Assembly (NCBI GenBank): GCA_011884725.1
Contig: GCA_011884725.1_3919.1
From: a phage
Direction: 5' to 3' (one strand)
DNA: 64,000 bases
Both the position numbers and the translations under genes were made by a program. Below are positions 1-20,635 of the stretch, piece after piece. The notes below the pieces were generated by a model that was not told the origin of the DNA, searched no databases, and worked only from the letters and a program-made list of their open reading frames with translations. The stretch's first letter is position 1. Every line of letters begins with the position of its first letter.

Positions 1-2
1 TT

Positions 3-527
3 AACCTATATACACAGTTGGATGTTGGGAAGTGTGCATCATACCGATACTTAGTGGAGTCACTAGAAAAACTCCGTAAATTTTGCTGGATGCACAACAT
101 TCGTAAGATTGGTTTACCCATGATTGGTGCAGGTATCGGTGGTTTAGACGCACAAGCTGTGAAAAGCCTCATTAATAGCGTTATGTACAACGTTGATGTG
201 TACCTATACGTCTATGATGAAGCAATGGCAACTGTAGTTACCCCTAAGTATGCCACCTCAGCACCACAATTCTATGATGGTGTCGTGCTAAGTGACGGTA
301 AGTCTAACCATGTTACCCTCTATCAGCTTGTTGATGGTAAGGTCGAGGCTAGTTACCCTCTGGTTAGTGAGATGGGTATGTGTAATAGTGAAATGTTCTC
401 AATTGACCCGTTTGGTAGATACGAAGGGGTGTTCTTTGATAGCTACCCAGCAGCATACATCTACACAACAAATCAGGATGAAGTTCACTACTTGCTGTAT
501 TCTAAAAAGTTCAAATTCATAAACTAA
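3..527 (+). CDS. macro-domain-like protein, 5' end probably cut by window edge
   Basis: Frame open to window start (listed TTG start at 18 is probably internal). Motif LEKLRKF..NIRKIGLPMIGAGIGGLD resembles the macro-domain phosphate-binding loop (cf. IAFPAISTGVYG). Confidence 0.4.
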   Translation, partial: NLYTQLDVGKCASYRYLVESLEKLRKFCWMHNIRKIGLPMIGAGIGGLDAQAVKSLINSVMYNVDVYLYVYDEAMATVVTPKYATSAPQFYDGVVLSDGKSNHVTLYQLVDGKVEASYPLVSEMGMCNSEMFSIDPFGRYEGVFFDSYPAAYIYTTNQDEVHYLLYSKKFKFIN

Positions 528-923
528 TTAGTGCTTCACAGCACCTATAATTAATCTAAGAAGGCCGCCTAACCCATTGAAAAATTTAAGGTAAGGCAGC
601 CTTTTTCATTTTCAATTTGTGCAGGTAGCTGTATAGGTCTGCACAGGTGTCTCAAAAAATCTCATCGCCGGATAGAAAAATCATTTTCAAAACGTGCAGA
701 CTCCGCTCAGGTCGGGCAAGAAAAATCATTTTAGAATTGTGCAGGTAGGTTTTTATGGGGAGCCAGACCAACCCCTCTCCCCCTATTACTCCCCCTCTCC
801 CCAAAAGTCAAGAGAAAAATTTGTAGCGGATTGAAAAATAATTCTTGATTTGTGTTCTGTTTTGTGGTAGTCGTGTGCGCACGTTTCATTACAGTTTTTC
901 CAAAAATATTTTTAAAATTTTTC

Positions 924-952
924 TTGACTCTTTGAACGGGGTTATCTAGTAT
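924..952 (+). promoter_or_regulatory. sigma70-like promoter of early gene array
   Basis: TTGACT (924-929), 17-nt spacer, TAGTAT (947-952), directly upstream of the first conserved leader module. Confidence 0.5.
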
Positions 953-956
953 TTGC

Positions 957-1015
957 ATCAACGGGGAGGGAATGACCTTCCCCACTAAATAAAGTCCTAA
1001 ACTGGAGATTCAAAA
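957..1015 (+). repeat. leader module A copy 1 (5' hairpin + RBS)
   Basis: ATCAACGGGGAGGGAATGACCTTCCCCACTAA..CTGGAGATTCAAAAATG; hairpin 963-983; near-identical copies before six genes. Confidence 0.7.
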
Positions 1016-1399
1016 ATGGCATACCGTGCACCTAAATTCATCAACAAAGACAACTTTCGCAACGCACTGGAGAAGTCACTTGATGAGAATTTTAAAGGTA
1101 ACGTTATTGTTGTTCACTCATTTAATTTCAAGTATGATATCAATGGGAATAAAATCAACCATTACACGGCAACAATGCTAGATGGTACTCTTTCAAGTGA
1201 AAAAGCCATTTTACATGCACTTGCTGGACGTGGTAAAAACCTGATAAGATGCGATAAGAGACGTTATCAGGGTGGCGCATATGGTTACGATGATGCTGTT
1301 TATCATCTTGAAAATATGGGCTATCAAGTAGAAAAAGCTGGAGTGTCTCAAATAATTGGTAGTGATGGTTACGTAACTATCTTCAAAATTAACAAATAA
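1016..1399 (+). CDS. hypothetical early protein
   Basis: 127-aa ORF, ATG preceded by conserved GGAGATTCAAAA RBS of module A. Confidence 0.7.
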   Translation: MAYRAPKFINKDNFRNALEKSLDENFKGNVIVVHSFNFKYDINGNKINHYTATMLDGTLSSEKAILHALAGRGKNLIRCDKRRYQGGAYGYDDAVYHLENMGYQVEKAGVSQIIGSDGYVTIFKINK

Positions 1400-1484
1400 A
1401 GTACTTTACAGGGGGCTTATAGTTCGATAAAGTAAGCCCCAGATAAAGAGCTTTACCACTAAATCCTAAATTGGAGATTCAAAA
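1400..1484 (+). repeat. leader module B copy 1 (stem-loop + RBS)
   Basis: Hairpin GGGGCTTA..TAAGCCCC (1412-1440) then AGATAAAGAGCTTTACCACTAAATCCTAAATTGGAGATTCAAAAATG; four copies in window. Confidence 0.7.
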
Positions 1485-1775
1485 ATGGCTACTATCAAAA
1501 ACGTTGTAATCCCTGTAAAAACTCGTGATGACGCTCGCATCATGGCGAAAAAGTTAGGCGGGAAAGTGGTTGACAACGGAAAACAATCTGCTGTAAGATG
1601 GGGTGTGAAGGCTGATAAACAGTTGAAGTTAAAAAATTCACCAATAAATCTTTTTACATGTGTAAACACTATCGGAAAGACAAATGTATACACGAAAAAG
1701 GCATATATTAGACGCGTAGCCTTAACATCTCCAACTCGTACAATGAGAAGTCATGCAAAGCTGAAAATTAACTGA
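1485..1775 (+). CDS. hypothetical early protein
   Basis: 96-aa ORF behind module B RBS. Confidence 0.7.
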   Translation: MATIKNVVIPVKTRDDARIMAKKLGGKVVDNGKQSAVRWGVKADKQLKLKNSPINLFTCVNTIGKTNVYTKKAYIRRVALTSPTRTMRSHAKLKIN

Positions 1776-1777
1776 TA

Positions 1778-1863
1778 AAGTACTTTACAAGGGGCTTAAA
1801 AGTTGATACCTTAAGCCCCAGATAAAGAGCTTTACCACTAAATCCTAAACTGGAGATTCAAAA
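1778..1863 (+). repeat. leader module B copy 2
   Basis: Hairpin GGGGCTTAA..TTAAGCCCC (about 1791-1819) plus conserved RBS region. Confidence 0.7.
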
Positions 1864-2160
1864 ATGAAATTATCAAATAAAGTTCGTGAAAATCTAAGCA
1901 AATTACTCAACAAAATTGATTTCATTGAAACATCAAGAAATAGCCATGATGTTATGGAATGGTTACACGGCAAAATAAAAGGTCGTCGTGTAGTGATTTG
2001 CTTATGGAATAGTTGCAGGGAGTATAAAAAACCTGTATTGCAAGTCAATATCTATGATGATAATCTTAAAAGTCCTGTCAAATCTAAAAGCGATTTACTA
2101 GATTCTTATGAGATAACTGTAAATGGCAAAGTGTCACGTAAAGAGGAAGCACCATGTTAA
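1864..2160 (+). CDS. hypothetical early protein
   Basis: 98-aa ORF behind module B. Confidence 0.7.
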   Translation: MKLSNKVRENLSKLLNKIDFIETSRNSHDVMEWLHGKIKGRRVVICLWNSCREYKKPVLQVNIYDDNLKSPVKSKSDLLDSYEITVNGKVSRKEEAPC

Positions 2161-2486
2161 TGACTGGTATCACTGCAATCATTGCCATTTTCGCGCTCTA
2201 TAAGGCATATAAAGCCTATAATCTAGCAAATAAGGCAATCACACAACAGGTTAGTAATAGCCTTGTAATGAGCTTTCTAGAGCGGTTGAGCGATGAACAA
2301 TTAAAGCGGTTAGAAATGAGCTTCAGATTCAGGGCGAGAACTTATCAAATCAGCGACATTTTCAAAGATGATTTTCAATTAGTCGATGATTATAATTCTC
2401 TGATAAATGCTTTAAATATTAGTGACTTAAAAGACTATCATACTGTAATTGTTCAAGAGTTGAGCAAACGAAAACAAAACTGTTGA
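2154..2486 (+). CDS. hypothetical membrane protein
   Basis: 110-aa ORF, hydrophobic N-terminus (MLMTGITAIIAIFALY), start overlaps previous stop. Confidence 0.6.
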   Translation: MLMTGITAIIAIFALYKAYKAYNLANKAITQQVSNSLVMSFLERLSDEQLKRLEMSFRFRARTYQISDIFKDDFQLVDDYNSLINALNISDLKDYHTVIVQELSKRKQNC

Positions 2487-2511
2487 CACTGATTTTTAGA
2501 TAGATTAAATT
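2483..2511 (+). promoter_or_regulatory. sigma70-like promoter
   Basis: TTGACA (2483-2488), 17-nt spacer, TAAATT; identical sequence recurs at 3347-3375. Confidence 0.55.
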
Positions 2512-2515
2512 ACAC

Positions 2516-2575
2516 ATCAACGGGGAGGGAATGACCTTCCCCACTAAGTAAAGTCCTTAAACTAGGAGATTCAAA
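2516..2575 (+). repeat. leader module A copy 2
   Basis: Same 5' hairpin (2522-2542) and RBS as copy 1. Confidence 0.7.
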
Positions 2576-2848
2576 ATGTATACTACTAACAACGGTCGCA
2601 CTTTAAATGTCACTCTACGTCACTATGTCGACGGTGTGATGCACTTTGAGGATTTACAGGCTGAGCAACATATCTTAAATTGGCAAGTCGCAGGACTCCA
2701 AAAAACTGCTACCGGATACGGCAAAAAGATTCCAACTAGCTGGAAAGTTCACTATGAAGGCCGTTTGCGCAGAATTTATCAGGATGTATGTAACAATAGC
2801 ACATCAAGTTACATCATAGTAAAAGGTAAAAAACTGCATTTAGTATAA
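2576..2848 (+). CDS. hypothetical early protein
   Basis: 90-aa ORF behind module A. Confidence 0.7.
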   Translation: MYTTNNGRTLNVTLRHYVDGVMHFEDLQAEQHILNWQVAGLQKTATGYGKKIPTSWKVHYEGRLRRIYQDVCNNSTSSYIIVKGKKLHLV

Positions 2849-2849
2849 A

Positions 2850-2933
2850 GTACTTTACAGGGGGCTTATTAGTCTGTACAGTAAGCCCCAGATAAAGAGC
2901 TTTACCACTCAATCCTAAATTGGAGATTCTAAA
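2850..2933 (+). repeat. leader module B copy 3
   Basis: Hairpin about 2861-2889 plus conserved RBS region. Confidence 0.7.
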
Positions 2934-3338
2934 ATGACTATTAATAATCGTGAGTTGTCAATCTTAAAAGCACGTTTAACCGTTAATCGAATCAATGTTA
3001 TTACATCATCAGCACCGGATGAAACATTGCACAACATTATCGGAAAGATTCAAAGCGTTATCTTAGACGTTGAAAACGTAAAAAACTCATTGGCTGACGT
3101 TGCAGCAGGTATCACGCTAGACGGTGCACAATATGAAATGGCCGACATGTTAGGCAAATCTAAGGTAATGAATAAAGAGTTAGACTTGAAAATGTTTAGA
3201 TTTGCCGTGAAAGTGTGGCTATCTGTTGAGTATGATGCTAATTTTGCAATCGCTGATTTCTTTGCCACTTGGTTACAACGTAATTTGGCAAATCATGACT
3301 TTCGTGACATCTGCGACGCAATTTATGCAGAACTCTAA
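2934..3338 (+). CDS. hypothetical early protein
   Basis: 134-aa ORF behind module B. Confidence 0.7.
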   Translation: MTINNRELSILKARLTVNRINVITSSAPDETLHNIIGKIQSVILDVENVKNSLADVAAGITLDGAQYEMADMLGKSKVMNKELDLKMFRFAVKVWLSVEYDANFAIADFFATWLQRNLANHDFRDICDAIYAEL

Positions 3339-3346
3339 AAATTTTA

Positions 3347-3375
3347 TTGACACTGATTTTTAGATAGATTAAATT
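3347..3375 (+). promoter_or_regulatory. sigma70-like promoter (duplicate of 2483-2511)
   Basis: TTGACACTGATTTTTAGATAGATTAAATT. Confidence 0.55.
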
Positions 3376-3377
3376 AC

Positions 3378-3439
3378 ACATCAACGGGGAGGGAATGACC
3401 TTCCCCACTAAGTAAAGTCCTTAAACTAGGAGATTCAAA
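3378..3439 (+). repeat. leader module A copy 3
   Basis: Hairpin 3385-3405 plus RBS. Confidence 0.7.
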
Positions 3440-3637
3440 ATGGCTATTATCAACGGTTTAACCATTGAAACCACGCACATCAAAGACATTAAAGTTGGTG
3501 ATGTAGTTCTTTCCCACGGCGTAGAAAAAACAGTCACTGCAAAGGGTATCAAAGATGATTCTTTCATGGGTAGAACTCTCTTCGGTGATTCTTATTGCTT
3601 AGGTTATCTTGCAGTTTTAAAAGTTGTCAAAAATTAA
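3440..3637 (+). CDS. hypothetical early protein
   Basis: 65-aa ORF behind module A. Confidence 0.65.
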   Translation: MAIINGLTIETTHIKDIKVGDVVLSHGVEKTVTAKGIKDDSFMGRTLFGDSYCLGYLAVLKVVKN

Positions 3638-3639
3638 CT

Positions 3640-3730
3640 GATAAAGTACTTTACAAGGGGTTTATAGTTCGATAAAGTAAGCCCCAGATAAAGAGCTTTA
3701 CCACTAAATCCTTAAACTAGGAGATTCAAA
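3640..3730 (+). repeat. leader module B copy 4
   Basis: Hairpin GGGGTTTA..TAAGCCCC (3657-3685); a C-to-T change gives a G.U pair, consistent with an RNA stem. Confidence 0.7.
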
Positions 3731-4273
3731 ATGAAATGCTTTCACGGTACTACTCAAGAAAACTTTATCAACCTGATTAATAACGGTGATAAACCATCAG
3801 GTGTATGGAATTGTTCGGATATGGACGGCAATTTTTACGTGTACCCAGAAAATAAACTCTATGGTGATGATGAGGAAGAGATAGCATCGGAAGGTATCCA
3901 GCAAGCTCTAGGAAATGCCACTATCACGGCAGCTTTTCAGATGAAAACTCAAAATATTGTTATCTTAGAACTTGACATTCCAGAGGATGAGCTAAATGAT
4001 GATTATTCTTGTGATAACATGTCAAATATAGCAAGCTTTACAGAGTACTTTGATGTAAATTGGATTAAAAAGGTCTATACAACAGAGTTCAACGCTATGT
4101 ATTCACCTTTTTGTCTCCCTTCACTGGATAACCCAAATTTAAATTATCTTGATGAAACATTGGAGCTACTTGCTAAAAGTATCCAACAATCCGACAGTAT
4201 TCAGGTTTTTTGTGACATCATGGATACACTGACAGAAAACATTGTAGAGAGTGATTTAAAGGTCTTTTTCTAA
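3731..4273 (+). CDS. hypothetical early protein
   Basis: 180-aa ORF with conserved RBS. Confidence 0.7.
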   Translation: MKCFHGTTQENFINLINNGDKPSGVWNCSDMDGNFYVYPENKLYGDDEEEIASEGIQQALGNATITAAFQMKTQNIVILELDIPEDELNDDYSCDNMSNIASFTEYFDVNWIKKVYTTEFNAMYSPFCLPSLDNPNLNYLDETLELLAKSIQQSDSIQVFCDIMDTLTENIVESDLKVFF

Positions 4274-4305
4274 AAACCTATACATTCACCTTATAAACAC
4301 TGATT

Positions 4306-4326
4306 AACCCCTTACAGGGGCTTTTA
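4306..4326 (+). terminator. possible intrinsic terminator
   Basis: CCCCT-TAC-AGGGG stem followed by CTTTT. Confidence 0.4.
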
Positions 4327-4339
4327 GAGGGCTTAAATC

Positions 4340-4573
4340 ATGCTTACAACCATTTATCTCATCCTTTCTATCTGTAGCGGTCATTCATGTGACTTTAAAG
4401 GGCTTGAAGAGTTTACAGGAAGTAAAGAAAATGCTATTCAGGTTTGCCAGATAGCAAGACAAGACTATCCCGCCAGTGATGATATACAATGCTACTTTAA
4501 GACAGAAGATGAAGAAGGAATCTATTTCGACAGTGTTGATGGTCAATATGAAATTATCATTGAAAAAGACTAG
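4340..4573 (+). CDS. hypothetical protein
   Basis: 77-aa ORF; RBS GAGGG upstream. Confidence 0.6.
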   Translation: MLTTIYLILSICSGHSCDFKGLEEFTGSKENAIQVCQIARQDYPASDDIQCYFKTEDEEGIYFDSVDGQYEIIIEKD

Positions 4574-4603
4574 ACAAGCCTGATAAAAGTCTGTAAATTA
4601 CAC

Positions 4604-4663
4604 ATCAACGGGGAGGGAATGACCTTCCCCACTAAATAAAGTCCTAAACTGGAGATTCTAAAA
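4604..4663 (+). repeat. leader module A copy 4
   Basis: Hairpin 4610-4630 plus RBS; preceded by TAAATT -10 element. Confidence 0.7.
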
Positions 4664-5005
4664 ATGGCTTATGTAACCGTAATTACTGATAAAGAGAATT
4701 CATCTTGGTCAACTCAGGTTAGTGACAAGATGTCACCTATGCAGTGCCTAAAATACTTTGAGCAGTGGAATAAAGGCGAGGATGTAAGCCCATTTCAAGT
4801 GATGCAGGTTATCCATGTAGATAACGAAGGGAATAAAACGGTTTTAAATAGTGAGTACTACGCAAGCCGTTTTGAAACTAGAAGTAAAACAATGAAGCTT
4901 TTACGTGAATCCGGTTATGCCCATATCGCCGCGCTAATCTGGGATGACCTGCTAAAAAGTCAGCGTATCAGCTATGTAAAACCTGAAAAAATATTCATCA
5001 GTTAA
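4664..5005 (+). CDS. hypothetical early protein
   Basis: 113-aa ORF behind module A. Confidence 0.7.
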   Translation: MAYVTVITDKENSSWSTQVSDKMSPMQCLKYFEQWNKGEDVSPFQVMQVIHVDNEGNKTVLNSEYYASRFETRSKTMKLLRESGYAHIAALIWDDLLKSQRISYVKPEKIFIS

Positions 5006-5037
5006 TCAATAACTTATAAAAAACTTTTAAAAAAGTG

Positions 5038-5066
5038 TTGACAACACCCCTTGACAATAGTACATT
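5038..5066 (+). promoter_or_regulatory. promoter with tandem TTGACA boxes
   Basis: GTTGACAACACCCCTTGACAATAGTACATT: TTGACA at 5038 and 5051, TACATT 17 nt after the first. Confidence 0.45.
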
Positions 5067-5206
5067 TGTTCGAGGGGGTTTATCTAAAAGGGATTCACTT
5101 AAAAGATTCTTTATAGATAAACTTAAAAAATTGCTTGCAATCATCTTCCAAAAACTTTATAGTTTATCTCAAGCAATAATGCTTTCCTAAACTGGAGATT
5201 CAAAAA

Positions 5207-5737
5207 ATGAACAAGTTCAAAGCTATCAACTACATTCGCTCAAATAGTGTCATGTCTAAGCCTGTTAAGGATACCTACGAATTCCGTTGCAATGGTGAAC
5301 ACTTTGCTACCATCACCAAATCAAACAACGGGGCTTATTATATCCATCGTCGTAATGTTTCTACGGTTGTAGTTTCTAACTTTATGCAAGCTGTAGCGGA
5401 ACTCCTCCCGCTCTTCTTAGAAAAGTATGCCGTACAGTGTGAAAGTGTTCGTGAATGCACTAAAACAGTGTTAAACGGTTATCGTATGGCTTACGAGCGC
5501 TCTTTAAAGAATCTCAATAAATACTACAAAGCACCGGAAGGCACTTCATCCACAGCCTACGGGGTAGGGGGCTTCAATGTCAGCCTTTACGAAGTGGAAG
5601 AAATCGAGCTTTATGACCATCGCCCAAATGGTTACGCTAAGACACTGGGAGAGGGGTTAATGCTGAATATCAAGAACTTAGAAAAAACTTTAAGAGAAAT
5701 TGAAAAAGATATTGACGAGACAATCAAAAGTCTGTAA
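5207..5737 (+). CDS. hypothetical protein
   Basis: 176-aa ORF; RBS CTGGAGATTCAAAAAATG. Confidence 0.7.
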   Translation: MNKFKAINYIRSNSVMSKPVKDTYEFRCNGEHFATITKSNNGAYYIHRRNVSTVVVSNFMQAVAELLPLFLEKYAVQCESVRECTKTVLNGYRMAYERSLKNLNKYYKAPEGTSSTAYGVGGFNVSLYEVEEIELYDHRPNGYAKTLGEGLMLNIKNLEKTLREIEKDIDETIKSL

Positions 5738-5743
5738 ATTATC

Positions 5744-5802
5744 AATCAACGGGGAGGGAATAACCTTCCCCACTAAGTAAAGTCCTAAACTGGAGATTCA
5801 AA
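5744..5802 (+). repeat. leader module A copy 5
   Basis: Hairpin GGGGAGGGAATAACCTTCCCC (5751-5771) plus RBS. Confidence 0.7.
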
Positions 5803-6066
5803 ATGGAACACGTAGAACTGACCACACTCTTACAAATCGCAACCGACAAGGAAGACGTAGCATTATTTCACCGTATAGAGAGTGATTTGTTCAATGGTGA
5901 AATCATCAAAGAATCTTACGAAGTTGTCGGATTCAAAGATGGTAAAGCATTTGGCTTTTTTGACCTCGACAAAAGCAAAGCGGTTACAAAGTACGATGTT
6001 CTATCTTGTGAGATTCTTACAAAATACAACGAAAAAAGGCTTGCAACCTACGCCAACATGCAGTAA
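5803..6066 (+). CDS. hypothetical early protein
   Basis: 87-aa ORF behind module A. Confidence 0.7.
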   Translation: MEHVELTTLLQIATDKEDVALFHRIESDLFNGEIIKESYEVVGFKDGKAFGFFDLDKSKAVTKYDVLSCEILTKYNEKRLATYANMQ

Positions 6067-6072
6067 ATTACT

Positions 6073-6132
6073 AATCAACGGGGAGGGATGACCTCCCTAC
6101 TAAACAAAGTCCTAAACTGGAGAATCTAAATT
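6073..6132 (+). repeat. leader module A copy 6 (variant)
   Basis: Variant hairpin GGGAGGGATGACCTCCCT with compensatory changes, then conserved RBS. Confidence 0.65.
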
Positions 6133-6381
6133 ATGTCAACTATCCGCGTAACTGTTAATGCTTATGGCTGCCACCAACTTGATGCAAAATTCGATATCGG
6201 TGGAACAGATAACACCTTTGACCTTATCAAAATGCTGATTCAGCAGGTGATACCAGATTATAACCCTACTGATGACTTCTGGAAAGATGCCGTAAAAGAA
6301 GCCATAAACGAGGAATCTCACTACCATTATTGGGGTGACTTGATTATCTCTCTGTACTACAGCAAACAAGGTTACAACTAA
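6133..6381 (+). CDS. hypothetical early protein
   Basis: 82-aa ORF behind module A variant. Confidence 0.7.
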   Translation: MSTIRVTVNAYGCHQLDAKFDIGGTDNTFDLIKMLIQQVIPDYNPTDDFWKDAVKEAINEESHYHYWGDLIISLYYSKQGYN

Positions 6382-12704: not shown

Positions 12705-13169
12705 TTACTTTGGATATACACTGTCAAGATAAATGTCAGCTTCCATTCTACGTCTATTTTTCAAGCCGTTTGAAGTTACCTTCTTACCTTTGACTGTAAT
12801 CTTGTTCCACCACTGCATAGCTTCTGCACAACCTACCTTATTACCAGCATTGTGGCGCTTGATAAATGTAGAGTCCTGCATAGCTGTGATACCGATGTTA
12901 TATGTTTCACTTACAAGTGCATCGAACTCATTCTGAGAAGTTGGAGCCTTGATAGCTTTGTTCACTGCTGCAACAAACTTTTCAACATCTGCGAGAAGAT
13001 ACTGTTCAGCTTGTTCAGCCGTGATTTTCATACCCATCTTAACAGGTTTCCCGTCAATACGGATTGTACCATACCCGATTGTTGGGATTCCGGCAGAGTC
13101 TTCGTAAGCCTCTAACTCCAGACCTTCGAAGAACTTAATAGCGTCTAAACCTTTTCTTGAGAGTTGCAT
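12705..13169 (-). CDS. endolysin, T4-lysozyme-like (GH24) muramidase
   Basis: FFEGLELEAYEDSAGIPTIGYG matches the T4 lysozyme catalytic region [22 protein letters not shown] (Glu-Asp-Thr spacing). Confidence 0.85.
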   Translation of the reverse strand: MQLSRKGLDAIKFFEGLELEAYEDSAGIPTIGYGTIRIDGKPVKMGMKITAEQAEQYLLADVEKFVAAVNKAIKAPTSQNEFDALVSETYNIGITAMQDSTFIKRHNAGNKVGCAEAMQWWNKITVKGKKVTSNGLKNRRRMEADIYLDSVYPK

Positions 13170-14302
13170 TACGCCTCCCCTGCTGGGTTAACTGTAACTG
13201 TTGCTGCATTGGATGTTACAGAGCCACCTGCACCAGTAACTACACAGGTGTAGCTTCCTGCATCAGCAGCGGTTGCACCTTCTTTGGTGTAAGTTGCAGT
13301 AGTTGCATCGAGGATGTCTTCCTCACCTTTCTTCCATTGGTAACCTGTCGCACCTGTTGCCACAACATTCAGCGTTAAGGTCTCACCTTCAGTGATTTCT
13401 TGATTGGTTGGCTGTTGAGTGATAACTGGTAAAGCTTTCACAGTAACGGTTGCAGGGTTAGAAGTGACAGAACCACCTGCACCTGTTACAACGCAAGTGT
13501 ATGAACCTGCATCTGCTGGCAGAGCACCAGACTTACTATAGGTTGCATCTGTAGCCGAAGGAATGTCAGAGCTATCTTTCTCCCACTGATAACCTGTTGC
13601 ACCTGTTGCAGTCACTTCCAAGTTGATGTTTCCACCCTCATTGACGGTCTGGCTAGAAGGTTGTTGTGTAATCACAGGCAGTGCGTTGACAGTAACTGTT
13701 GCCGCATCTGAGGTAACGCTTGTCCCAGCCTCTCCAGATACAACACAAGTGTATGAACCAGCATCAGAAGGTTCTACAGACTGTTTTGTGTAGGTTGCAG
13801 ATGTGGCGCTAGTGATATCCTCACCATCCTTTTTCCATTGATATCCAGTGGCATTAGTTGCAATAACACTTAGGGTAAGTGTACCACCTTCATTTACTGT
13901 TTGATTGGTTGGTTGCTGAGTGATTGATGGTGGCTTGATAGCGTCCTTCAACTTAGCATTCAACATTGAGAATGGTTTAACTCTTGCCAGCCATTCACAA
14001 TAAACTGTATCAACGTCTTTACCATTGATAATTGCATATTGTAAGTCCATGAAGAAGTCAGAAGTTCTCATTTGAGCACCAACACTGTAAAGCAACTCAT
14101 CACTAAATGGAACTTTGTAGTCTGGTTTATAGTCAAACTTCTCAACTTCTGCAATATCAGCTTCAGGCCAATACGAGCTATAGGTAAGTGGTAAAATAGC
14201 CTCTTGATATGTTCTAAAATCATATCTCTTACCAGCCTTTACGTTTGCAATGAAGCCCTTCACAAACTCTTTGAAGTCTGGGTAAGTCTTTGCTTTAATC
14301 AT
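13169..14302 (-). CDS. protein with three tandem Ig-like repeats
   Basis: 377 aa; N-domain of about 130 aa, then three repeats of about 85 aa (PVITQQPTNQTVNEGG..ATGYQWKK..AGSYTCVV.G..VTS..ATVTV). Confidence 0.7.
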   Translation of the reverse strand: MIKAKTYPDFKEFVKGFIANVKAGKRYDFRTYQEAILPLTYSSYWPEADIAEVEKFDYKPDYKVPFSDELLYSVGAQMRTSDFFMDLQYAIINGKDVDTVYCEWLARVKPFSMLNAKLKDAIKPPSITQQPTNQTVNEGGTLTLSVIATNATGYQWKKDGEDITSATSATYTKQSVEPSDAGSYTCVVSGEAGTSVTSDAATVTVNALPVITQQPSSQTVNEGGNINLEVTATGATGYQWEKDSSDIPSATDATYSKSGALPADAGSYTCVVTGAGGSVTSNPATVTVKALPVITQQPTNQEITEGETLTLNVVATGATGYQWKKGEEDILDATTATYTKEGATAADAGSYTCVVTGAGGSVTSNAATVTVNPAGEA

Positions 14303-16380: not shown

Positions 16381-17796
16381 ATGAGCGAATTATTTAAACA
16401 TGCGCACCTTCATGCAGGTCGAACTGAAAATGGTGCTGTAAACCATACTTCATCAATGTCTGCTCTTGTAGACTTTTACAAAGCTGCTGGTTCAAGCCGT
16501 AGCAATGTAGAAATCTTACCAGACCTGTTCTACAAAGCTTTGCGTGAGGATGTTGATGTTGCAGTTCGTATTTTACTGCATATGCGAGATGTACGAGAAG
16601 GTATGGGTGAGCGTAAAGCCTTCAGAACTGTTTTACTTCAAGCGATTGAAGACAAAGTTTTAGAGCCTACGCAGGTTCTTCGCATTATGGATAAGATTGC
16701 AGAACTTGGTCGTTTTGATGACTTCAAAATCTTTGTAGGTACTCGTTTCGAGACAGATGCCTTCAAGCATTTAGAAGCAGCATTACTAGACCCTGCAACA
16801 GCAGGTTTGGCAGCTAAGTGGTTACCACGAGTCAAACCACGTCATAAGCAGTTTGTAAAACGTTTCTGCAAGTTTGCCAACTTGAGCGAGAAAGAGTACC
16901 GCACACTGTTGTCTGCACTATCTGATACAGTTGAGCAAAAAATCTCTGCTAATGAGTTTGGTAAGATTGACTACAGTAAGATTCCTTCACTTGCTGCTGC
17001 ACGCTACCAAAAACTGTTTAACCGTAAAGATGGAGAGCGATACAAAGCTTACATCGAGTCCTTATCAAAGGGTGAGGCTAAGATTAATGCTGGTGCTGTT
17101 TACCCATACGATGTGATTAAATCTGTCAAGCATGGTAATGCAGATGTTGCTAATGAGCAGTGGAAAGCACTACCAAACTGGATGGCAGAAGGTGAAAACA
17201 TCTTGTGTATGTCTGATGTATCAAGTTCAATGTCTTGGGTGAATTTTGGCTCCATTACTGCTCTGGATATTGGTGTATCACTTGCCTTGTATGTAGCAGA
17301 ACGCAATACAGGCTGCTTTAAGAATGAGTTGATGGTTTATTCAACAAACCCTCACTTCATCGAACTGAGTGGTGATTTACGAAACCGTCATCGTCAGGTG
17401 ATGCGACACGTTGAATATGGCTCAACTAACTTACAAGCAGCTTTTGACCGCATTCTTGAAACAGGTAAAAGAAACAACTTGACTCAGAAAGATATGCCAA
17501 GTAAGCTTATCATCTTCTCCGATATGGAGTTCAATCAGGTTGATGGAGCTAACGGTCGTACAAACTTTGAAGCAATTCAGAGTAAGTACAAAAAAGCTGG
17601 ATATGAGATGCCACAACTGGTATTCTGGTACTTAGCAAACCGTAATGGTACTTGCGAAGTGTCTGTTAAGGATAACGGTGTAGCAATGGTATCTGGTTTC
17701 TCTCCAGCCACTTTAAAAGCTCTGCTTGGTGGTGAGAAGTTTGACCCAATCAGCGTAATGCTCAAAGCAGTAATGATTGACCGTTATATCTGGTAA
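16381..17796 (+). CDS. vWA-domain protein with helical N-domain (possible TROVE/Ro60-like architecture)
   Basis: 471 aa; C-terminal vWA with MIDAS-like DVSSSMS (DxSxS) and downstream T and D positions (IIFSDMEF); helical N-domain of about 270 aa; sits directly upstream of the tRNA array. Confidence 0.7.
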   Translation: MSELFKHAHLHAGRTENGAVNHTSSMSALVDFYKAAGSSRSNVEILPDLFYKALREDVDVAVRILLHMRDVREGMGERKAFRTVLLQAIEDKVLEPTQVLRIMDKIAELGRFDDFKIFVGTRFETDAFKHLEAALLDPATAGLAAKWLPRVKPRHKQFVKRFCKFANLSEKEYRTLLSALSDTVEQKISANEFGKIDYSKIPSLAAARYQKLFNRKDGERYKAYIESLSKGEAKINAGAVYPYDVIKSVKHGNADVANEQWKALPNWMAEGENILCMSDVSSSMSWVNFGSITALDIGVSLALYVAERNTGCFKNELMVYSTNPHFIELSGDLRNRHRQVMRHVEYGSTNLQAAFDRILETGKRNNLTQKDMPSKLIIFSDMEFNQVDGANGRTNFEAIQSKYKKAGYEMPQLVFWYLANRNGTCEVSVKDNGVAMVSGFSPATLKALLGGEKFDPISVMLKAVMIDRYIW

Positions 17797-17961: not shown

Positions 17962-18038
17962 CTCTGTTTAGCTCAGCTTGGTAGAGCGTTCCGTTTGGGG
18001 CGGTAAGGCCGGAGGTTCAAGTCCTCCAACAGAGACCA
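17962..18038 (+). tRNA. tRNA-Pro (anticodon TGG)
   Basis: 7-bp acceptor CTCTGTT/AACAGAG, T-arm GGAGGTTCAAGTCCTCC, anticodon loop TTTGGGG, encoded CCA. Confidence 0.75.
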
Positions 18039-18045
18039 AATTAAT

Positions 18046-18123
18046 GTTCCAGTAGACAAAATGGTAAAGTCACCACTCTTTCAAAGTGGATATCTGAGGG
18101 TTCAAATCCCTTCTGGAACGCCA
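18046..18123 (+). tRNA. tRNA-Glu (anticodon TTC)
   Basis: Acceptor GTTCCAG/CTGGAAC, anticodon stem CCACT/AGTGG, loop CTTTCAA, T-loop TTCAAAT, CCA. Confidence 0.75.
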
Positions 18124-18126
18124 GTT

Positions 18127-18205
18127 TTGACAGAAGACCAATTACAGCAAACTTAATCTTATTCATCTGAAGGTAAATCGGACAAAGAAGAGATTTGGTC
18201 TGGTC
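18127..18205 (+). ncRNA. inter-tRNA structured element E1
   Basis: CAGAAGACC-box, helix AGACCAA (18135-18141) / TTGGTCT (18195-18201), TTACAGCAAA box inside. Confidence 0.5.
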
Positions 18206-18214
18206 ATTAAGAAT

Positions 18215-18291
18215 TGCGGGTATAGAGAAAGGGCGTCTCACATGTCTCATTAGCATGGTATCGGCAGGTTCGACTCCTGCACCCGCCTCCA
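18215..18291 (+). tRNA. tRNA-Met-like (anticodon CAT) with 1:72 mismatch
   Basis: Anticodon stem CATGT/GCATG, loop CTCATTA, T-arm GCAGGTTCGACTCCTGC, 3' ACCCGCC-T-CCA; 5' end TGCGGGT leaves position 1 unpaired. Confidence 0.6.
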
Positions 18292-18294
18292 AAT

Positions 18295-18365
18295 TTACAG
18301 AAGACCGTTTACAGCAAAATTGAATGAAATTTTTAGCGGAAAAATTGAAAGATACGGTCTGGTAA
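18295..18365 (+). ncRNA. inter-tRNA structured element E2
   Basis: Helix AGACCGT (18302-18308) / ACGGTCT (18354-18360); compensatory to E1; TTACAGCAAAA box. Confidence 0.5.
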
Positions 18366-18375
18366 TACTAAACAT

Positions 18376-18449
18376 GGTTAGGAAGCACATAAGGTATGTG
18401 CGGTCGCCTGTTAAGCGAATGGCACAGGGTTCGAATCCCTGACTAACCG
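18376..18449 (+). tRNA. tRNA-Asn (anticodon GTT)
   Basis: Acceptor GGTTAGG, D-stem GCAC/GTGC, anticodon loop CTGTTAA, T-arm CAGGGTTCGAATCCCTG; no encoded CCA. Confidence 0.65.
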
Positions 18450-18461
18450 CAAAATTGAAAT

Positions 18462-18549
18462 GTGTCGTTATCCCGTAGATGGTAGCGGTGGGGACTGTAA
18501 ATCCCTTGTCATTGAGACTCGGTAGGTTCGACTCCTACACGGCACACCA
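18462..18549 (+). tRNA. tRNA-Tyr (anticodon GTA), long variable arm
   Basis: Acceptor GTGTCGT/ACGGCAC, anticodon loop CTGTAAA, long variable arm, T-arm GTAGGTTCGACTCCTAC, CCA. Confidence 0.7.
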
Positions 18550-18554
18550 ATAAA

Positions 18555-18631
18555 GGCTATGTAGTTTAACTGGAGAAAATACTCCCCTGTCACGGGAGAT
18601 GATGTGAGTTCAAGTCTCATCGTAGCCGCCA
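18555..18631 (+). tRNA. tRNA-Asp (anticodon GTC)
   Basis: Acceptor GGCTATG/CGTAGCC, anticodon stem CTCCC/GGGAG, loop CTGTCAC, T-loop TTCAAGT, CCA. Confidence 0.75.
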
Positions 18632-18685
18632 AATTATAATAAGTATTTCAAAATGATGTTTTGAGAGGGCTATTTAGCCCCTCCC

Positions 18686-18716
18686 TTAAAGAGTTCTTAC
18701 GAGTATTCTTTAAAGG
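18686..18716 (+). ncRNA. hairpin with conserved TTCTTACGAG loop, copy 1
   Basis: TTAAAGAGTTCTTACGAGTATTCTTTAAAGG; second copy at 22027-22056 has a different but still complementary stem. Confidence 0.45.
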
Positions 18717-18795
18717 AGCAGAAGACCAAATACAGCAAGAATGTATGATATTTTCAAGCCAATCCAATTTTGAAAAAATTTAAAACTTGGTCTGG
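18717..18795 (+). ncRNA. inter-tRNA structured element E3
   Basis: CAGAAGACC box, helix AGACCAA (18723-18729) / TTGGTCT (18787-18793), ATACAGCAAG box. Confidence 0.5.
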
Positions 18796-18804
18796 CTCAA
18801 CAAA

Positions 18805-18939
18805 TTTACAGAAGACCGTTTACAGCAAAACTTAAACAATCTATTTCTCGGTAAAGAAAAGGCGAAGGTTCGATTCCTTCACTCGGCAGATGTCGAGTTG
18901 GTGTAATGGTAGCACTTAAGATGATAAACAACGGTCTGG
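18805..18939 (+). ncRNA. element E4 enclosing a tRNA-like module
   Basis: Helix AGACCGTT (18813-18820) / AACGGTCT (18930-18937); inside: T-arm GAAGGTTCGATTCCTTC, hairpin ACTCGGC-AGAT-GTCGAGT, D-arm-like GTGTAATGGTAGCAC. The order is 3'-half before 5'-half. Confidence 0.45.
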
Positions 18940-18940
18940 T

Positions 18941-19084
18941 AATTATCTTTGTAGATAAGTTATTAAGCTTACCTGTGAGTATGCGACCACAAAGGGTGAA
19001 AGGGTAAATTCTAGATTTAAACCCAAAAAGGCACATCGCTACAGACCTTAAGCAAGTCTGGGTAGCTTATCTACAAAGATAATT
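18941..19084 (+). ncRNA. structured RNA closed by a 19-bp perfect helix
   Basis: AATTATCTTTGTAGATAAG (18941-18959) is the exact reverse complement of CTTATCTACAAAGATAATT (19066-19084); inner hairpins include CAGAC/GTCTG. Confidence 0.5.
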
Positions 19085-19088
19085 TAAT

Positions 19089-19164
19089 GGAAGTGTAGCA
19101 GAATGGTGATGCGGCAGACTTTTAATCTGACAGGCGATGGGTTCGAATCCCTCCACTTCTACCA
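19089..19164 (+). tRNA. tRNA-Lys (anticodon TTT)
   Basis: Acceptor GGAAGTG/CACTTCT (G1.U72), anticodon loop CTTTTAA, T-loop TTCGAAT (weak T-stem), CCA. Confidence 0.65.
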
Positions 19165-19168
19165 ATAT

Positions 19169-19245
19169 GGTTCAGTCGCAGATAAGGTAATGCAAGGGTC
19201 TCATAAGCCCTATGAATGTGGGTTCGATTCCCATCTGAACCTCCA
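19169..19245 (+). tRNA. tRNA with CAT anticodon (elongator Met or Ile2-type)
   Basis: Acceptor GGTTCAG/CTGAACC fully paired, anticodon stem AGGGT/GCCCT, loop CTCATAA, T-loop TTCGATT, CCA. Confidence 0.65.
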
Positions 19246-19246
19246 A

Positions 19247-19322
19247 GCTGGTATAGTTAAGAAGGTTATAACACTCCCCTGATAAGGGAACATCGGTGGT
19301 TCGATTCCACCTACCAGTACCA
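19247..19322 (+). tRNA. tRNA-Ile (anticodon GAT)
   Basis: Acceptor GCTGGTA/TACCAGT, anticodon loop CTGATAA, T-arm GGTGGTTCGATTCCACC, CCA. Confidence 0.7.
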
Positions 19323-19337
19323 ATTTCAATAAAGTTG

Positions 19338-19366
19338 TTGACATTGAGATGTGACTACTTTATAGT
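19338..19366 (+). promoter_or_regulatory. internal promoter within tRNA array
   Basis: TTGACA (19338-19343), 17-nt spacer, TATAGT (19361-19366). Confidence 0.6.
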
Positions 19367-19568
19367 AACCTTAGTTTTCGTTGCGTAGCGTCTATTTTGC
19401 AAATTTAAAATAAATGCAAACGACAATGTTTTTCTGGCAGTAGCTTGATAGGCTAAACACCAGTGAGGTCTTCCAATCCCTCATCAAAGAATTTGGCGTA
19501 CTCGCCCACGGTATGATTAATAAGGTGGGCATCTTTAAGGGCTTTCTAAGAGAGTCTTTAAAGATAAT

Positions 19569-19645
19569 GCACCCTTAGTTCAATTGGATAGAGCAACGGT
19601 CTTCTAAATCGTTAGTTACAGGTTCGAATCCTGTAGGGTGTACCA
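19569..19645 (+). tRNA. tRNA-Arg (anticodon TCT)
   Basis: Acceptor GCACCCT/AGGGTGT, D-arm TAGTTCAATTGGATAGAGC, anticodon loop CTTCTAA, T-loop TTCGAAT, CCA. Confidence 0.75.
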
Positions 19646-19787
19646 AATAGTTAGCAGATTACTTAGACGGCCTTAGCGGGTCTTCCTGTAGGGAGGTGGT
19701 CTGTATCTCATGTTTTCCAGAACATGTAAATAATCTGAGAAGAAGCTTGACAGTGTTGAGATAACAGGGTAAGCTTCGAATTATAAT

Positions 19788-19870
19788 ATGGGACGATGTT
19801 AAGACTCTAAGGCATGAGCAACGGCCTCCAAAACCGTTTCAAAGGGGTTCAACTCCTCCGTCCCATGCCA
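19788..19870 (+). tRNA. atypical tRNA (anticodon probably CCA, Trp?)
   Basis: Acceptor ATGGGAC/GTCCCAT, T-loop TTCAACT, CCA; anticodon stem AACGG/CCGTT encloses 9 nt (CCTCCAAAA); D region is 4-8 nt longer than usual. Confidence 0.45.
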
Positions 19871-19883
19871 AAGTCTTATTAGG

Positions 19884-19971
19884 GGTAGGTAGCGGCTAAT
19901 GGTAGCCAAACTGTCTTGAAAACAGTTGCCACTGTAGAGATACGGTGAGGGTTCGACTCCTTTACTTACCG
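19884..19971 (+). tRNA. tRNA-Ser (anticodon TGA), long variable arm
   Basis: Acceptor GGTAGGT/ACTTACC, anticodon stem ACTGT/ACAGT, loop CTTGAAA, long variable arm, T-loop TTCGACT. Confidence 0.65.
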
Positions 19972-20126
19972 CCTAATAAGATTTACTCCGTCCATGCTTG
20001 TTCGCATTGTCGGTTTATCCCTCGTGTATTGTCGTACACTGTCAAAGCACCTAGTAGGTGTCACGGAGAAGAGATAATATCAAGCTCTCCAAAGGTTCTA
20101 GTCACCGGATTAAACAAGACTATGCA

Positions 20127-20151
20127 AAGACCTATTTAGGTCTTTTTAGAG
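20127..20151 (+). terminator. intrinsic terminator inside tRNA array
   Basis: AAAGACC-TATTTA-GGTCTTT followed by TTTAG. Confidence 0.5.
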
Positions 20152-20227
20152 GGCTTCTAAGGTTATTAGTCGCTTGTTGTGGAACCTTGTTGCTTAGGTT
20201 CTTAGAAGTTCTCTAAAAAGATTTAAT

Positions 20228-20305
20228 GGGAGATTGACGGTAATTGGTAAACCTACCATCCTTAGAAGTTGGTGTTTGAGGGTTCGAATCCCTTGTCTCC
20301 TACCA
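20228..20305 (+). tRNA. tRNA, class I shape, anticodon TAG (Leu?)
   Basis: Acceptor GGGAGAT/GTCTCCT, anticodon loop CTTAGAA, 5-nt variable loop, T-loop TTCGAAT, A73, CCA. Confidence 0.5.
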
Positions 20306-20634: not shown

Positions 20635-20635
20635 A

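What the first reader, a model, noticed from the sequence alone, without database searches (positions are those of the whole stretch)
3..527. Macro-domain-like protein at the window edge
The visible C-terminal part carries a macro-domain-like glycine-rich loop (KIGLPMIGAGIGGLD). Macro domains bind or hydrolyse ADP-ribose, so a phage copy could reverse ADP-ribosylation of DNA, RNA or protein. The assignment rests on a short motif and the gene is truncated by the window.
Basis: partly seen in the sequence, partly recalled or inferred. Interest (0 to 1): 0.45.

Follow-up and report, generated by a model that had tools for sequence, protein, structure and literature searches.

The report
Phage macrodomain, likely anti-DarT2 factor
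The window edge cuts through a gene of a Felix O1-like phage whose product is a real macrodomain related to phage T4 Tk.4, a protein recently shown to protect T4 from a bacterial defence that ADP-ribosylates DNA, so the finding is correct but is a new member of a known family.

Summary
Confirmed. Window 3-527 (+) is the C-terminal 174 codons plus stop of a 259-aa protein conserved in Felixounavirus phages (94-97% identical full-length copies in EcoM2, BPS17L1 and phiWec177). Only nt 3-215 belong to the macrodomain. Nt 216-524 encode a separate ~103-aa domain with no detectable relatives outside this protein family.

Full-length relatives pass Pfam Macro. The best matches are the macrodomain part of DarG, TARG1 and SCO6735, by both sequence and predicted fold.

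The position of the catalytic Lys of TARG1, DarG and PhiKZ AdfM is occupied by Gln (NLYTQ, nt 3-17). SCO6735 also has Gln there, and that enzyme removes ADP-ribose from thymidine in DNA.

The macrodomain is 33% identical (E 1e-22) to T4 Tk.4, which has the same motifs. A 2025 preprint shows that tk.4 is needed for T4 to resist the DarTG2 defence and names it AdfM. T5, which is DarTG2-sensitive, has no homologue.

Most likely function: an orphan-antitoxin-like enzyme that strips ADP-ribose from phage DNA. The fast-evolving C-terminal domain and a two-allele cassette (window 1-680) are the unexplained parts.

Verdict: new member of a known kind, modest interest.

The parts
3..527 (+). 3' part of the gene: codons 86-259 of a 259-codon CDS, plus the TAA stop (525-527). 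The first 85 codons lie upstream of the window.
   Evidence: Translation. Alignment with full-length EcoM2, BPS17L1 and phiWec177 proteins, 97/95/94% identity. dN/dS 0.13-0.15 against these three.
3..215 (+). C-terminal half of the macrodomain (aa 86-156 of the full protein): central strand, helix, glycine-rich diphosphate-binding loop, last helix and strand.
   Evidence: Pfam Macro profile positions 74-116. DarG models. TARG1, DarG and SCO6735 alignments. AlphaFold2 model of a 95%-identical full-length relative, best Foldseek hits 5m31 and 4j5r.
3..17 (+). NLYTQ motif. Gln (nt 15-17; Q90 of the full protein) sits at the position of the catalytic Lys of TARG1 (K84), DarG (K80) and PhiKZ AdfM (K78), and of the essential Gln85 of SCO6735.
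   Evidence: HMMER alignments to TARG1. The profile alignment to 5e3b ends at Q, opposite chain residue 105, which is SCO6735 Gln85 (numbering offset). hhalign to PhiKZ gp104. Q is present in 113 of 114 motif-bearing homologues. Residue roles from PMC9411070 and PMC13309987.
105..149 (+).
   Evidence: Read directly in the sequence. P-x-I-G-A-G-I-x-G is invariant across the family. It aligns with TARG1 MPRIGCGLDRL. It is the only part conserved at DNA level (about 77%) between the two Felixounavirus alleles.
216..524 (+). C-terminal domain of ~103 aa, acidic (pI 4.6), six or seven beta-strands followed by one helix. Found only fused to this macrodomain in Ounavirinae-like phages; function unknown.
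558..616 (+). Stem-loop (558-606) followed by a U-rich tract; probable intrinsic terminator of the operon that ends with this gene.
   Evidence: RNA fold of 525-625: -25.7 kcal/mol, z = -3.2. A Rho-independent terminator is annotated at the same place after the wV8 homologue. The simple terminator scan did not report it because the loop is long.
1..680 (.). Right part of a mosaic cassette that exists in two allelic forms in Felixounaviruses. It runs from about codon 48 of the gene to about 150 nt past the stop.
   Evidence: wV8 is 97.7% identical to the window from nt 681 on, but matches only nt 109-217 (77%) before that. EcoM2 against VpaE1 and wV8 loses identity about 143 nt into the gene and regains it at the position equal to window 681. 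The window-type allele is in 13 phage records; ~214 others matched only nt ~105-227 at 60-80% DNA identity, and the other-allele proteins that were examined are about 41% identical.

Best explanation
The ORF is the C-terminal two-thirds of a two-domain phage protein. Its N-terminal 157 aa form a macrodomain of the ALC1-like class (the TARG1, DarG, SCO6735 group), of the same phage family as T4 Tk.4 (PHROG 335, usually annotated 'phosphatase').

Proposed mechanism: the glycine-rich loop (nt 105-149), together with the upstream H-G-C-N...M-G-A-G-I-A loop that lies outside the window, holds the diphosphate and distal ribose of ADP-ribose. Asn28 and Gln90 (the Gln is at nt 15-17) position the ribose-base bond for water-mediated hydrolysis, as proposed for SCO6735. 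The enzyme thereby removes ADP-ribose that a host DarT2-type toxin has put on thymidines of single-stranded phage DNA, so that replication can go on. In effect it is an orphan antitoxin carried by the phage (an AdfM-type anti-DarT factor).

Shown here: macrodomain identity, class, motif equivalences, and homology to T4 Tk.4.
Shown elsewhere: T4 tk.4 is required for resistance to DarTG2; SCO6735, with Gln at the catalytic position, cleaves thymidine-linked ADP-ribose.
Inferred: that this Felixounavirus protein has the same substrate and role.

The C-terminal ~103-aa domain is inferred to be a partner- or substrate-binding module. It evolves about twice as fast as the macrodomain, and its function is not known.
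For: Family and class:
- PHROG 335, E 7e-48.
- Pfam Macro is passed by the 94-97% identical full-length copies.
- The best curated models are the macrodomain part of DarG: NCBIfam 2.3e-15 and PADLOC 2.9e-16.
- PDB sequence hits: TARG1 1e-13, T. aquaticus DarG 1e-11, M. tuberculosis DarG 3e-11, Bt_1257 2e-10, SCO6735 7e-10.
- AlphaFold2 model: pLDDT 79.5, pTM 0.74. Best Foldseek hit is the T. aquaticus DarG macrodomain, then TARG1.

Active site:
- H25-G-C-N28 matches SCO6735 H24-V-C-N27.
- Q90 matches TARG1 K84, SCO6735 Q85 and PhiKZ AdfM K78.
- SCO6735 Q85 and N27 are needed for cleavage of thymidine-linked ADP-ribose (PMC9411070).
- The macrodomain is basic, pI 9.2, which fits a nucleic-acid substrate.

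Link to function:
- T4 Tk.4 is 33% identical, E 1e-22, with the same three motifs.
- tk.4 was the single hit of a transposon screen on a DarTG2 host, and a clean knockout sensitises T4 to DarTG2 (bioRxiv 10.1101/2025.11.20.689424).
- T4 lacking adfA and adfN stays DarTG2-resistant (PMC11825919).

A test that could have failed: T5, which is DarTG2-sensitive, has no homologue anywhere in its genome, while the T4 control scores 1.6e-35.

The gene is under purifying selection and lies in a cassette with two deeply diverged alleles, as is common for counter-defence genes.
Against: - Nothing has been measured for this protein or for any Felixounavirus homologue.
- Identity to T4 Tk.4 is only 33%, and macrodomains of one class can differ in substrate. 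TARG1 and SCO6735 also act on proteins.
- The T4 result is a preprint. It shows genetics, not the enzymatic step.
- Whether DarTG2 restricts Felixounaviruses is unknown.
- The N-terminal third of the domain, including Asn28, is not in the window and is taken from 94-97% identical relatives.
- T4 Tk.4 works without the C-terminal domain, so that domain is unexplained by this model.
- The T5/T4 contrast is two phages only.
- Macro-only relatives in two metagenomic phages sit next to Tad2-like genes, which could point to ADP-ribose-derived signals instead.
Confidence: 0.6

Rival explanations
1. A general ADP-ribosyl hydrolase that acts on ADP-ribosylated RNA or protein rather than DNA. Examples would be countering mRNA-modifying toxins such as CmdT, or reversing protein ADP-ribosylation by host or phage transferases.
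For: TARG1 and SCO6735, close structural and sequence relatives, also de-modify proteins (PMC9411070). mRNA ADP-ribosylation is a known anti-phage mechanism (PMC11618068). The family is very widespread, in 2826 phage records, which suggests a broad need.
Against: The only genetic phenotype known for a family member (T4 tk.4) is against DarTG2, where it was the single hit. The best curated models are DarG. No ADP-ribosyltransferase gene turned up among the 20 window ORFs scanned, but the scan was not exhaustive.
Confidence: 0.15
2. A small-molecule enzyme, as the database name 'phosphatase' implies: an ADP-ribose 1''-phosphate phosphatase like yeast Poa1p, or an O-acetyl-ADP-ribose deacetylase. 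It could be linked to tRNA repair, since a polynucleotide kinase lies in the same gene block and the phage has 26 tRNAs.
For: The N-terminal 60 aa are most similar to Poa1p (E 1.4e-5 to 1.6e-6). GenBank, PHROG and JGI names include 'phosphatase', 'Poa1p_like' and 'O-acetyl-ADP-ribose deacetylase'. A polynucleotide kinase gene lies eight genes upstream in relatives.
Against: The Poa1p match stops after 60 residues, whereas TARG1, DarG and SCO6735 align over the whole domain. These names are transferred annotations, not tested activities. T4 tk.4 is not next to pseT or RNA ligase genes, so the linkage to the kinase is not conserved. The T4 phenotype is defence-related.
Confidence: 0.1
3. A binder or hydrolase of ADP-ribose-derived immune signals such as Thoeris gcADPR or His-ADPR, acting as a sponge-type counter-defence.
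For: Macro-only family members in ~100 kb phage contigs lie two genes from a Tad2-like (PF11195) gene. Macrodomains bind ADP-ribose derivatives (established knowledge).
Against: This is neighbourhood evidence from two related contigs, where the gene also sits among replication genes (DnaB-like helicase, DNA polymerase A). The hydrolase-type residues (Asn, Gln) are strictly conserved. No such activity is known for this macrodomain class.
Confidence: 0.05
4. A non-catalytic ADP-ribose reader: the macrodomain only binds, and the C-terminal domain carries the activity or recruits a partner.
For: The canonical catalytic Lys and the TARG1 Asp125 are both absent, replaced by Gln and Gly. The C-terminal domain is of unknown function.
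Against: SCO6735 is highly active with the same Gln. T4 Tk.4 has the same Gln, lacks the C-terminal domain and still protects against DarTG2. The C-terminal domain has no conserved polar residues that suggest a catalytic site.
Confidence: 0.05

Closest known systems
Phage T4 Tk.4 (NP_049723.1), named AdfM in bioRxiv 10.1101/2025.11.20.689424
   Same: Same phage macrodomain family (PHROG 335). 33% identity over 159 aa, E 1e-22. Identical HGCNC, NLYTQ and P-x-IGAGIG motifs. Lytic coliphage context.
   Different: T4 Tk.4 is a single domain of 155 aa. The Felixounavirus protein carries an extra ~103-aa C-terminal domain. The function is shown genetically for T4 only.
PhiKZ gp104, the AdfM of chimalliviruses (PMC13309987)
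   Same: A phage macrodomain shown to remove DarT2-made ADP-ribose from DNA. Homologous (hhalign probability 95.7%). The Asn (N23 there, N28 here) is conserved.
   Different: Only 21-23% identity. It has Lys78 where this protein has Gln. It is imported into the phage nucleus, which Felixounaviruses do not have. It has no C-terminal domain.
DarG2 antitoxin macrodomain (T. aquaticus 5m31/5m3e, M. tuberculosis 5m3i)
   Same: Best curated-model match and best fold match. Substrate class: thymidine-linked ADP-ribose on single-stranded DNA.
   Different: Scores 56.7 bits against a 250-bit equivalog cut-off. No DarG C-terminal DarT-binding domain is matched (only positions 2-153 of 338). No adjacent darT gene. 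Lys80 is replaced by Gln.
Streptomyces coelicolor SCO6735 (5e3b) and Bacteroides Bt_1257 (2fg1)
   Same: ALC1-like macrodomains. The His-x-Cys-Asn and Gln constellation is the same. SCO6735 cleaves thymidine-linked ADP-ribose with Gln85 essential.
   Different: They are cellular stand-alone proteins, and sequence similarity is modest (E 7e-10 with the family profile). The 'mobile loop' lysines are only partly matched: a Lys lies five residues after Gln in Felixounavirus proteins but not in macro-only relatives.
Human TARG1/OARD1 (4j5r)
   Same: Top PDB sequence hit (1e-13 with the profile); TM-score 0.74-0.78 normalised to the target.
   Different: The catalytic dyad Lys84/Asp125 is replaced by Gln and Gly. 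TARG1 also lacks the Asn.
Yeast Poa1p (6lfq-6lfu), ADP-ribose 1''-phosphate phosphatase
   Same: Strong similarity in the first 60 residues, including HxCNC...GGGIA. This is the source of the 'phosphatase' label.
   Different: The match does not extend through the rest of the domain. The Ser30 position that is altered in one deposited Poa1p variant is Leu here (reading).

Membership tests
Macro domain (Pfam PF01661) | Score at or above the curated gathering cut-off (22 bits) | tested here: met
   Full-length relatives that are 94-95% identical to the fragment score 28.9-29.0 bits. The truncated window fragment alone scores 15.4 bits, below the cut-off, because 85 residues are missing.
Macro domain (Pfam PF01661) | Alpha/beta/alpha sandwich fold with two glycine-rich loops around the ADP-ribose cleft | tested here: met
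   AlphaFold2 model pLDDT 79.5. Foldseek E 2e-7 to 1e-6 against the DarG and TARG1 macrodomains, TM 0.72-0.78 normalised to the target. Loop 2 is in the window (nt 105-149). Loop 1 (MGAGIA) is seen only in relatives.
Macro domain (Pfam PF01661) | Binds ADP-ribose | not testable with these tools
   Needs a binding assay (ITC or similar) with purified protein.
ALC1-like (TARG1/DarG/SCO6735) macrodomain class | Closest sequence and structure relatives fall in this class rather than the MacroD or PARG classes | tested here: met
   The top ten distinct PDB sequences are TARG1, DarG, 2afc, Bt_1257 and SCO6735. MacroD-type Af1521 scores only E 0.06. Foldseek gives the same order.
DarG antitoxin (NCBIfam NF048014, equivalog) | Full-length score above 250 bits; macrodomain plus C-terminal DarT-binding domain; encoded next to darT | tested here: not met
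   56.7 bits, matching only model positions 2-153 of 338; PADLOC DarG positions 2-150 of 329. The neighbours are spanins and small phage genes, not darT.
DarG antitoxin (NCBIfam NF048014, equivalog) | Catalytic Lys80 (T. aquaticus numbering) | tested here: not met
   Gln occupies the position of TARG1 K84 and of PhiKZ AdfM K78. PMC9411070 equates these with DarG K80. A direct alignment to 5m31 at this residue could not be printed.
T4 Tk.4-type AdfM (phage macrodomain, PHROG 335) | Significant full-domain homology to T4 Tk.4 with the shared HGCNC, NLYTQ and GAGIG motifs | tested here: met
   BLASTP E 1e-22, 33% identity over 159 aa; alignment; PHROG 335 E 7e-48. Q after NLYT in 113 of 114 homologues.
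T4 Tk.4-type AdfM (phage macrodomain, PHROG 335) | Confers resistance to DarTG2 | not testable with these tools
   Shown for T4 only. Here there is only a consistent absence of the family from the DarTG2-sensitive phage T5.
PhiKZ-type AdfM (chimallivirus gp104) | Close homology to gp104, with active-site Asn23 and Lys78 | tested here: not met
   21-23% identity. Asn is conserved, but Lys78 aligns with Gln. A remote homologue, not a member.
SCO6735/Bt_1257 subclass of ALC1-like macrodomains | Gln at the catalytic position, supported by His24, Asn27 and the loop glycines | tested here: met
   H25-G-C-N28 aligns with H24-V-C-N27. The profile's Gln position aligns with 5e3b chain residue 105, which is Gln85. 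G127, G129 and G131 lie in the loop.
SCO6735/Bt_1257 subclass of ALC1-like macrodomains | Mobile loop five residues longer, carrying Lys89 and Lys93/94 | tested here: inconclusive
   Felixounavirus proteins have G94-K95 after Q90, but the macro-only relatives do not. Loop length could not be compared residue by residue without model coordinates.
Poa1p-type ADP-ribose 1''-phosphate phosphatase | Homology over the whole domain, and phosphatase activity | tested here: inconclusive
   Similarity is confined to residues 1-60. In the full-profile search one Poa1p entry aligned over positions 1-97. Activity cannot be tested here.

The most novel reading that the evidence does not exclude
The Ounavirinae-specific C-terminal domain has no detectable sequence or fold relatives, evolves about twice as fast as the macrodomain, and exists in deeply diverged alleles swapped as a cassette. 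On the most novel reading, it is an independently evolved toxin-binding or DNA-mimicking module. That would give these phages a second, non-enzymatic way to neutralise DarT2-like toxins, functionally parallel to the C-terminal domain of bacterial DarG but unrelated to it. The two alleles would then track different host toxins.
Probability: 0.2. Interest if true: 0.55.

Novelty: new member of a known kind. Interest (0 to 1): 0.3.

Why it matters
DarTG systems stop phages by ADP-ribosylating their DNA, and phage-borne erasers decide which hosts a phage can infect. This finding places the common 'phosphatase' gene of Felix O1-like phages, which are widely used for Salmonella and E. coli biocontrol and typing, in the same family as T4 Tk.4/AdfM. 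That gives a concrete, testable prediction for host-range determinants. It also shows that the Gln-type active site described in Streptomyces SCO6735 is the rule in a phage family present in about 2800 sequenced phages. The attached orphan C-terminal domain is a small open question.

Tried and rejected
Start codon and weak hits
- The TTG at nt 18 as start codon is rejected: relatives show 85 more codons upstream.
- Weak Pfam hits of the fragment (sCache_2, RuvX, Catalase_C; E 0.1-0.2) are treated as chance.

C-terminal domain, searched four ways without an assignment
- Pfam and NCBIfam.
- A profile search of 1.84 billion representatives: own family only.
- Foldseek against BFVD: own family only.
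- The afdb50 library was not available.
- No similarity to the DarG C-terminal domain appeared in the DarG HMM matches.

Alignments
- I tried to print a residue-level alignment to T. aquaticus DarG (5m31). The five printed slots were always taken by TARG1 or Poa1p entries.
- The Lys80 equivalence therefore rests on TARG1 K84, PhiKZ K78 and the literature.

Literature
- No paper on the Felixounavirus macro gene was found.
- The PhageMaP study of Bas63 does not mention it, and its supplements are not held.
- LeRoux et al. 2022 is not held.

Context scans
- Twenty window ORFs were scanned for NAD or ADP-ribosyltransferase domains; none was found. The scan was not exhaustive.
- T5.105, annotated 'Sir2', was considered as a hidden macrodomain in T5 and rejected: no similarity, and an N-terminal DxDGV motif of another kind.

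Linkage to polynucleotide kinase as evidence for a tRNA-repair role is rejected, because it is not conserved in T4.

Full report
**Observation.** Frame 3 of the + strand is open from nt 3 to a TAA at 525-527, giving 174 codons. The other two forward frames are closed. The peptide KIGLPMIGAGIGGLD is encoded at nt 105-149. The ORF lister offers a TTG at nt 18, but this is not the start. The window is a Felixounavirus (Felix O1-like myovirus of E. coli and Salmonella): megablast finds 251 phage records, and the window carries 26 tRNA genes and typical structural and replication genes. In relatives the gene is 780 nt, or 259 aa. The visible part is 97%, 95% and 94% identical to the EcoM2, BPS17L1 and phiWec177 proteins. 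So the window holds residues 86-259, and 85 codons lie upstream. dN/dS against these three is 0.13-0.15, so this is a functional gene.

**Is it a macrodomain?** Yes.
- The fragment alone gives E 7e-48 to PHROG 335 'phosphatase', 8.7e-9 to the NCBIfam DarG model and 9.7e-10 to PADLOC DarG.
- Against Pfam Macro the fragment is below the cut-off (15.4 vs 22 bits) because it is truncated. The full-length relatives pass at 29 bits.
- A family profile hits TARG1 (1e-13), T. aquaticus and M. tuberculosis DarG (1e-11, 3e-11), 2afc, Bt_1257 and SCO6735 (about 1e-10) over the whole domain. MacroD-type proteins score far lower.
- An AlphaFold2 model of a 95%-identical full-length relative (pLDDT 79.5, pTM 0.74) is best matched by the T. 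aquaticus DarG macrodomain and TARG1.
- The class is therefore the ALC1-like (TARG1/DarG) class.

**Anatomy.** The protein has two domains.
- The macrodomain ends at DVYLYVY (window nt about 215).
- Nt 216-524 encode a further ~103 aa with no Pfam or NCBIfam match.
- A profile of this C-terminal part, searched against 1.84 billion representatives, found only its own family.
- A second database search with a macrodomain profile found 3164 relatives. Of the best 120, 30 are two-domain proteins of 228-281 aa from ~90 kb phages (Pectobacterium, Yersinia, Hafnia and others). The rest are single macrodomains of ~150 aa.
- Among the two-domain proteins, mean pairwise identity is 53% in the macrodomain and 24% in the C-terminal domain.
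- Within the close alleles, dN/dS is 0.04-0.05 for the macrodomain and 0.18-0.25 for the C-terminal domain.
- The macrodomain is basic (pI 9.2). The C-terminal domain of this allele is acidic (pI 4.6).

**Active site.** Three motifs are invariant in the family: H25-G-C-N28, N86-L-Y-T-Q90 and P124-x-I-G-A-G-I-x-G. The last two are in the window.
- HMMER aligns Q90 with the catalytic Lys84 of TARG1, and the TARG1 Asp125 with Gly.
- hhalign puts Q90 opposite Lys78 of PhiKZ AdfM.
- The profile alignment to SCO6735 (5e3b) ends exactly at the Gln, opposite chain residue 105. With the +20 numbering offset read, that residue is Gln85.
- H25-G-C-N28 aligns with SCO6735 H24-V-C-N27.
- According to PMC9411070, SCO6735 lacks the Lys and Asp, needs Gln85 and Asn27, and efficiently removes DarT-made ADP-ribose from thymidine.
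- Gln follows N-L-Y-T in 113 of 114 motif-bearing homologues.
- The missing Lys is therefore a family trait shared with an active enzyme, not a sign of an inactive domain.

**Link to function.**
- tblastn finds the macrodomain in 2826 phage records, including T4-like phages. There it is gene tk.4, 'contains A1pp phosphatase motif'.
- T4 Tk.4 is 33% identical (E 1e-22) and has the same motifs.
[quoted passage not shown] It also reports that T5 is sensitive.
- From these data I predicted that Tk.4-type macrodomains are that factor, and tested one consequence: T5 should lack the family. It does. tblastn and a family HMM over all six-frame ORFs of the 121,750-bp genome give nothing at E <= 10, while a T4 control scores 1.6e-35.
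- A later literature search then found bioRxiv 10.1101/2025.11.20.689424. In a T4 transposon library, tk.4 was the single significant hit on a DarTG2 host; a clean knockout sensitises T4; and the authors name the gene adfM. Enzymatic removal of ADP-ribose is inferred there, not shown. No Felixounavirus is treated in that paper.
- A different, Lys-type macrodomain, also called AdfM (PhiKZ gp104), has been shown biochemically to remove DarT2 modifications (PMC13309987). It is only 21-23% identical to the present protein.

**Best explanation.** The gene encodes a Tk.4/AdfM-family macrodomain that removes ADP-ribose from thymidines of phage single-stranded DNA modified by DarT2-type toxins, using the Gln-type mechanism of SCO6735. 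I put the macrodomain identity at about 0.95 and the anti-DarT2 role at about 0.6. The rivals are:
- action on RNA or protein ADP-ribosylation;
- a small-molecule role, as the 'phosphatase' label implies (similarity to Poa1p is limited to the first 60 residues);
- binding of ADP-ribose-derived immune signals, hinted at by Tad2-like neighbours of macro-only relatives;
- a purely binding role.

**Surroundings.**
- The gene is the last of a rightward block (polynucleotide kinase, spanins, small ORFs in relatives).
- It is followed by a stem-loop with a U tract at 558-616. A terminator is annotated at the same place in wV8.
- Window 1-680 belongs to a mosaic cassette. wV8 is 97.7% identical from nt 681 on, but before that matches only the glycine-loop region, at 77%.
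- In EcoM2 against VpaE1 or wV8, identity is lost about 143 nt into the gene and regained at the position equal to window 681.
- The window-type allele occurs in 13 records. ~214 others match the window only over nt ~105-227 at 60-80% DNA identity, which fits a second allele; the proteins of that allele that were examined are about 41% identical.

**Novelty and verdict.** Near-identical proteins are already in GenBank, labelled 'phosphatase', 'Macro domain, Poa1p_like family' or 'high-affinity ADP-ribose binding module'. The family now has a genetically validated member. This is a new member of a known kind. What remains open is the C-terminal domain, which T4 Tk.4 does without, and the meaning of the two alleles. 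Interest is modest (0.3).

Noticed in passing
window 600-6200: Families of direct repeats fill the intergenic spaces between the small genes downstream. Each has a promoter-like box, a hairpin GGGGAGGGAATGACCTTCCCC and a conserved leader ...CCTAAACTGGAGATTCAAAAATG (families D1-D6, up to 8 copies). They match the DR_1/6/7/9 repeats annotated in phage wV8. They also create the spurious reverse-strand ORFs that begin MGKVIPSPLM.
   Followed up: partly
window 606-755: Three copies of a short box, AAAAATCATTTT(C/A)(A/G)AA(T/A)(T/C)GTGCAGG, lie in the 490-nt gap right after the macro gene, upstream of the first repeat-type promoter. Their function is unknown.
   Followed up: no
window 16381-17796 (+): A 471-aa protein with DUF2828 and DUF7788 lies directly upstream of the 26-tRNA array (17962-23140). 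Its position matches the description of Bas63 g130, a Ro60-like protein reported as a counter to the Ppl defence (PMC11482910). The homology to g130 itself was not checked.
   Followed up: partly
window 13169-14302 (-): A 376-aa protein with three immunoglobulin-like domains and a weak chagasin-type peptidase-inhibitor (I42) match at its C-terminus.
   Followed up: no
L005 7621-8028; L006 7606-8073; L007 2389-2856: In ~100 kb metagenomic phage contigs, macro-only relatives of this protein (NLYTQ type) sit two genes from a Tad2-like (PF11195) gene, next to a DnaB-like helicase. This may be a small counter-defence cluster inside the replication module.
   Followed up: no
L014 7588-8094 (phage T5 gene T5.105): T5.105 is annotated 'Sir2 (NAD-dependent deacetylase)', but its N-terminus reads IIFLDIDGVLN, a HAD-phosphatase-like DxDG motif. 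The annotation looks doubtful.
   Followed up: no
window 1-680 and L004 2390-3180: The upstream break of the two-allele cassette lies inside the macro gene, at about codon 48. The first 47 codons are shared between alleles at 85-92% DNA identity while the rest is at about 41% protein identity. The conserved glycine-loop island (nt 105-227) may serve as a recombination anchor.
   Followed up: partly
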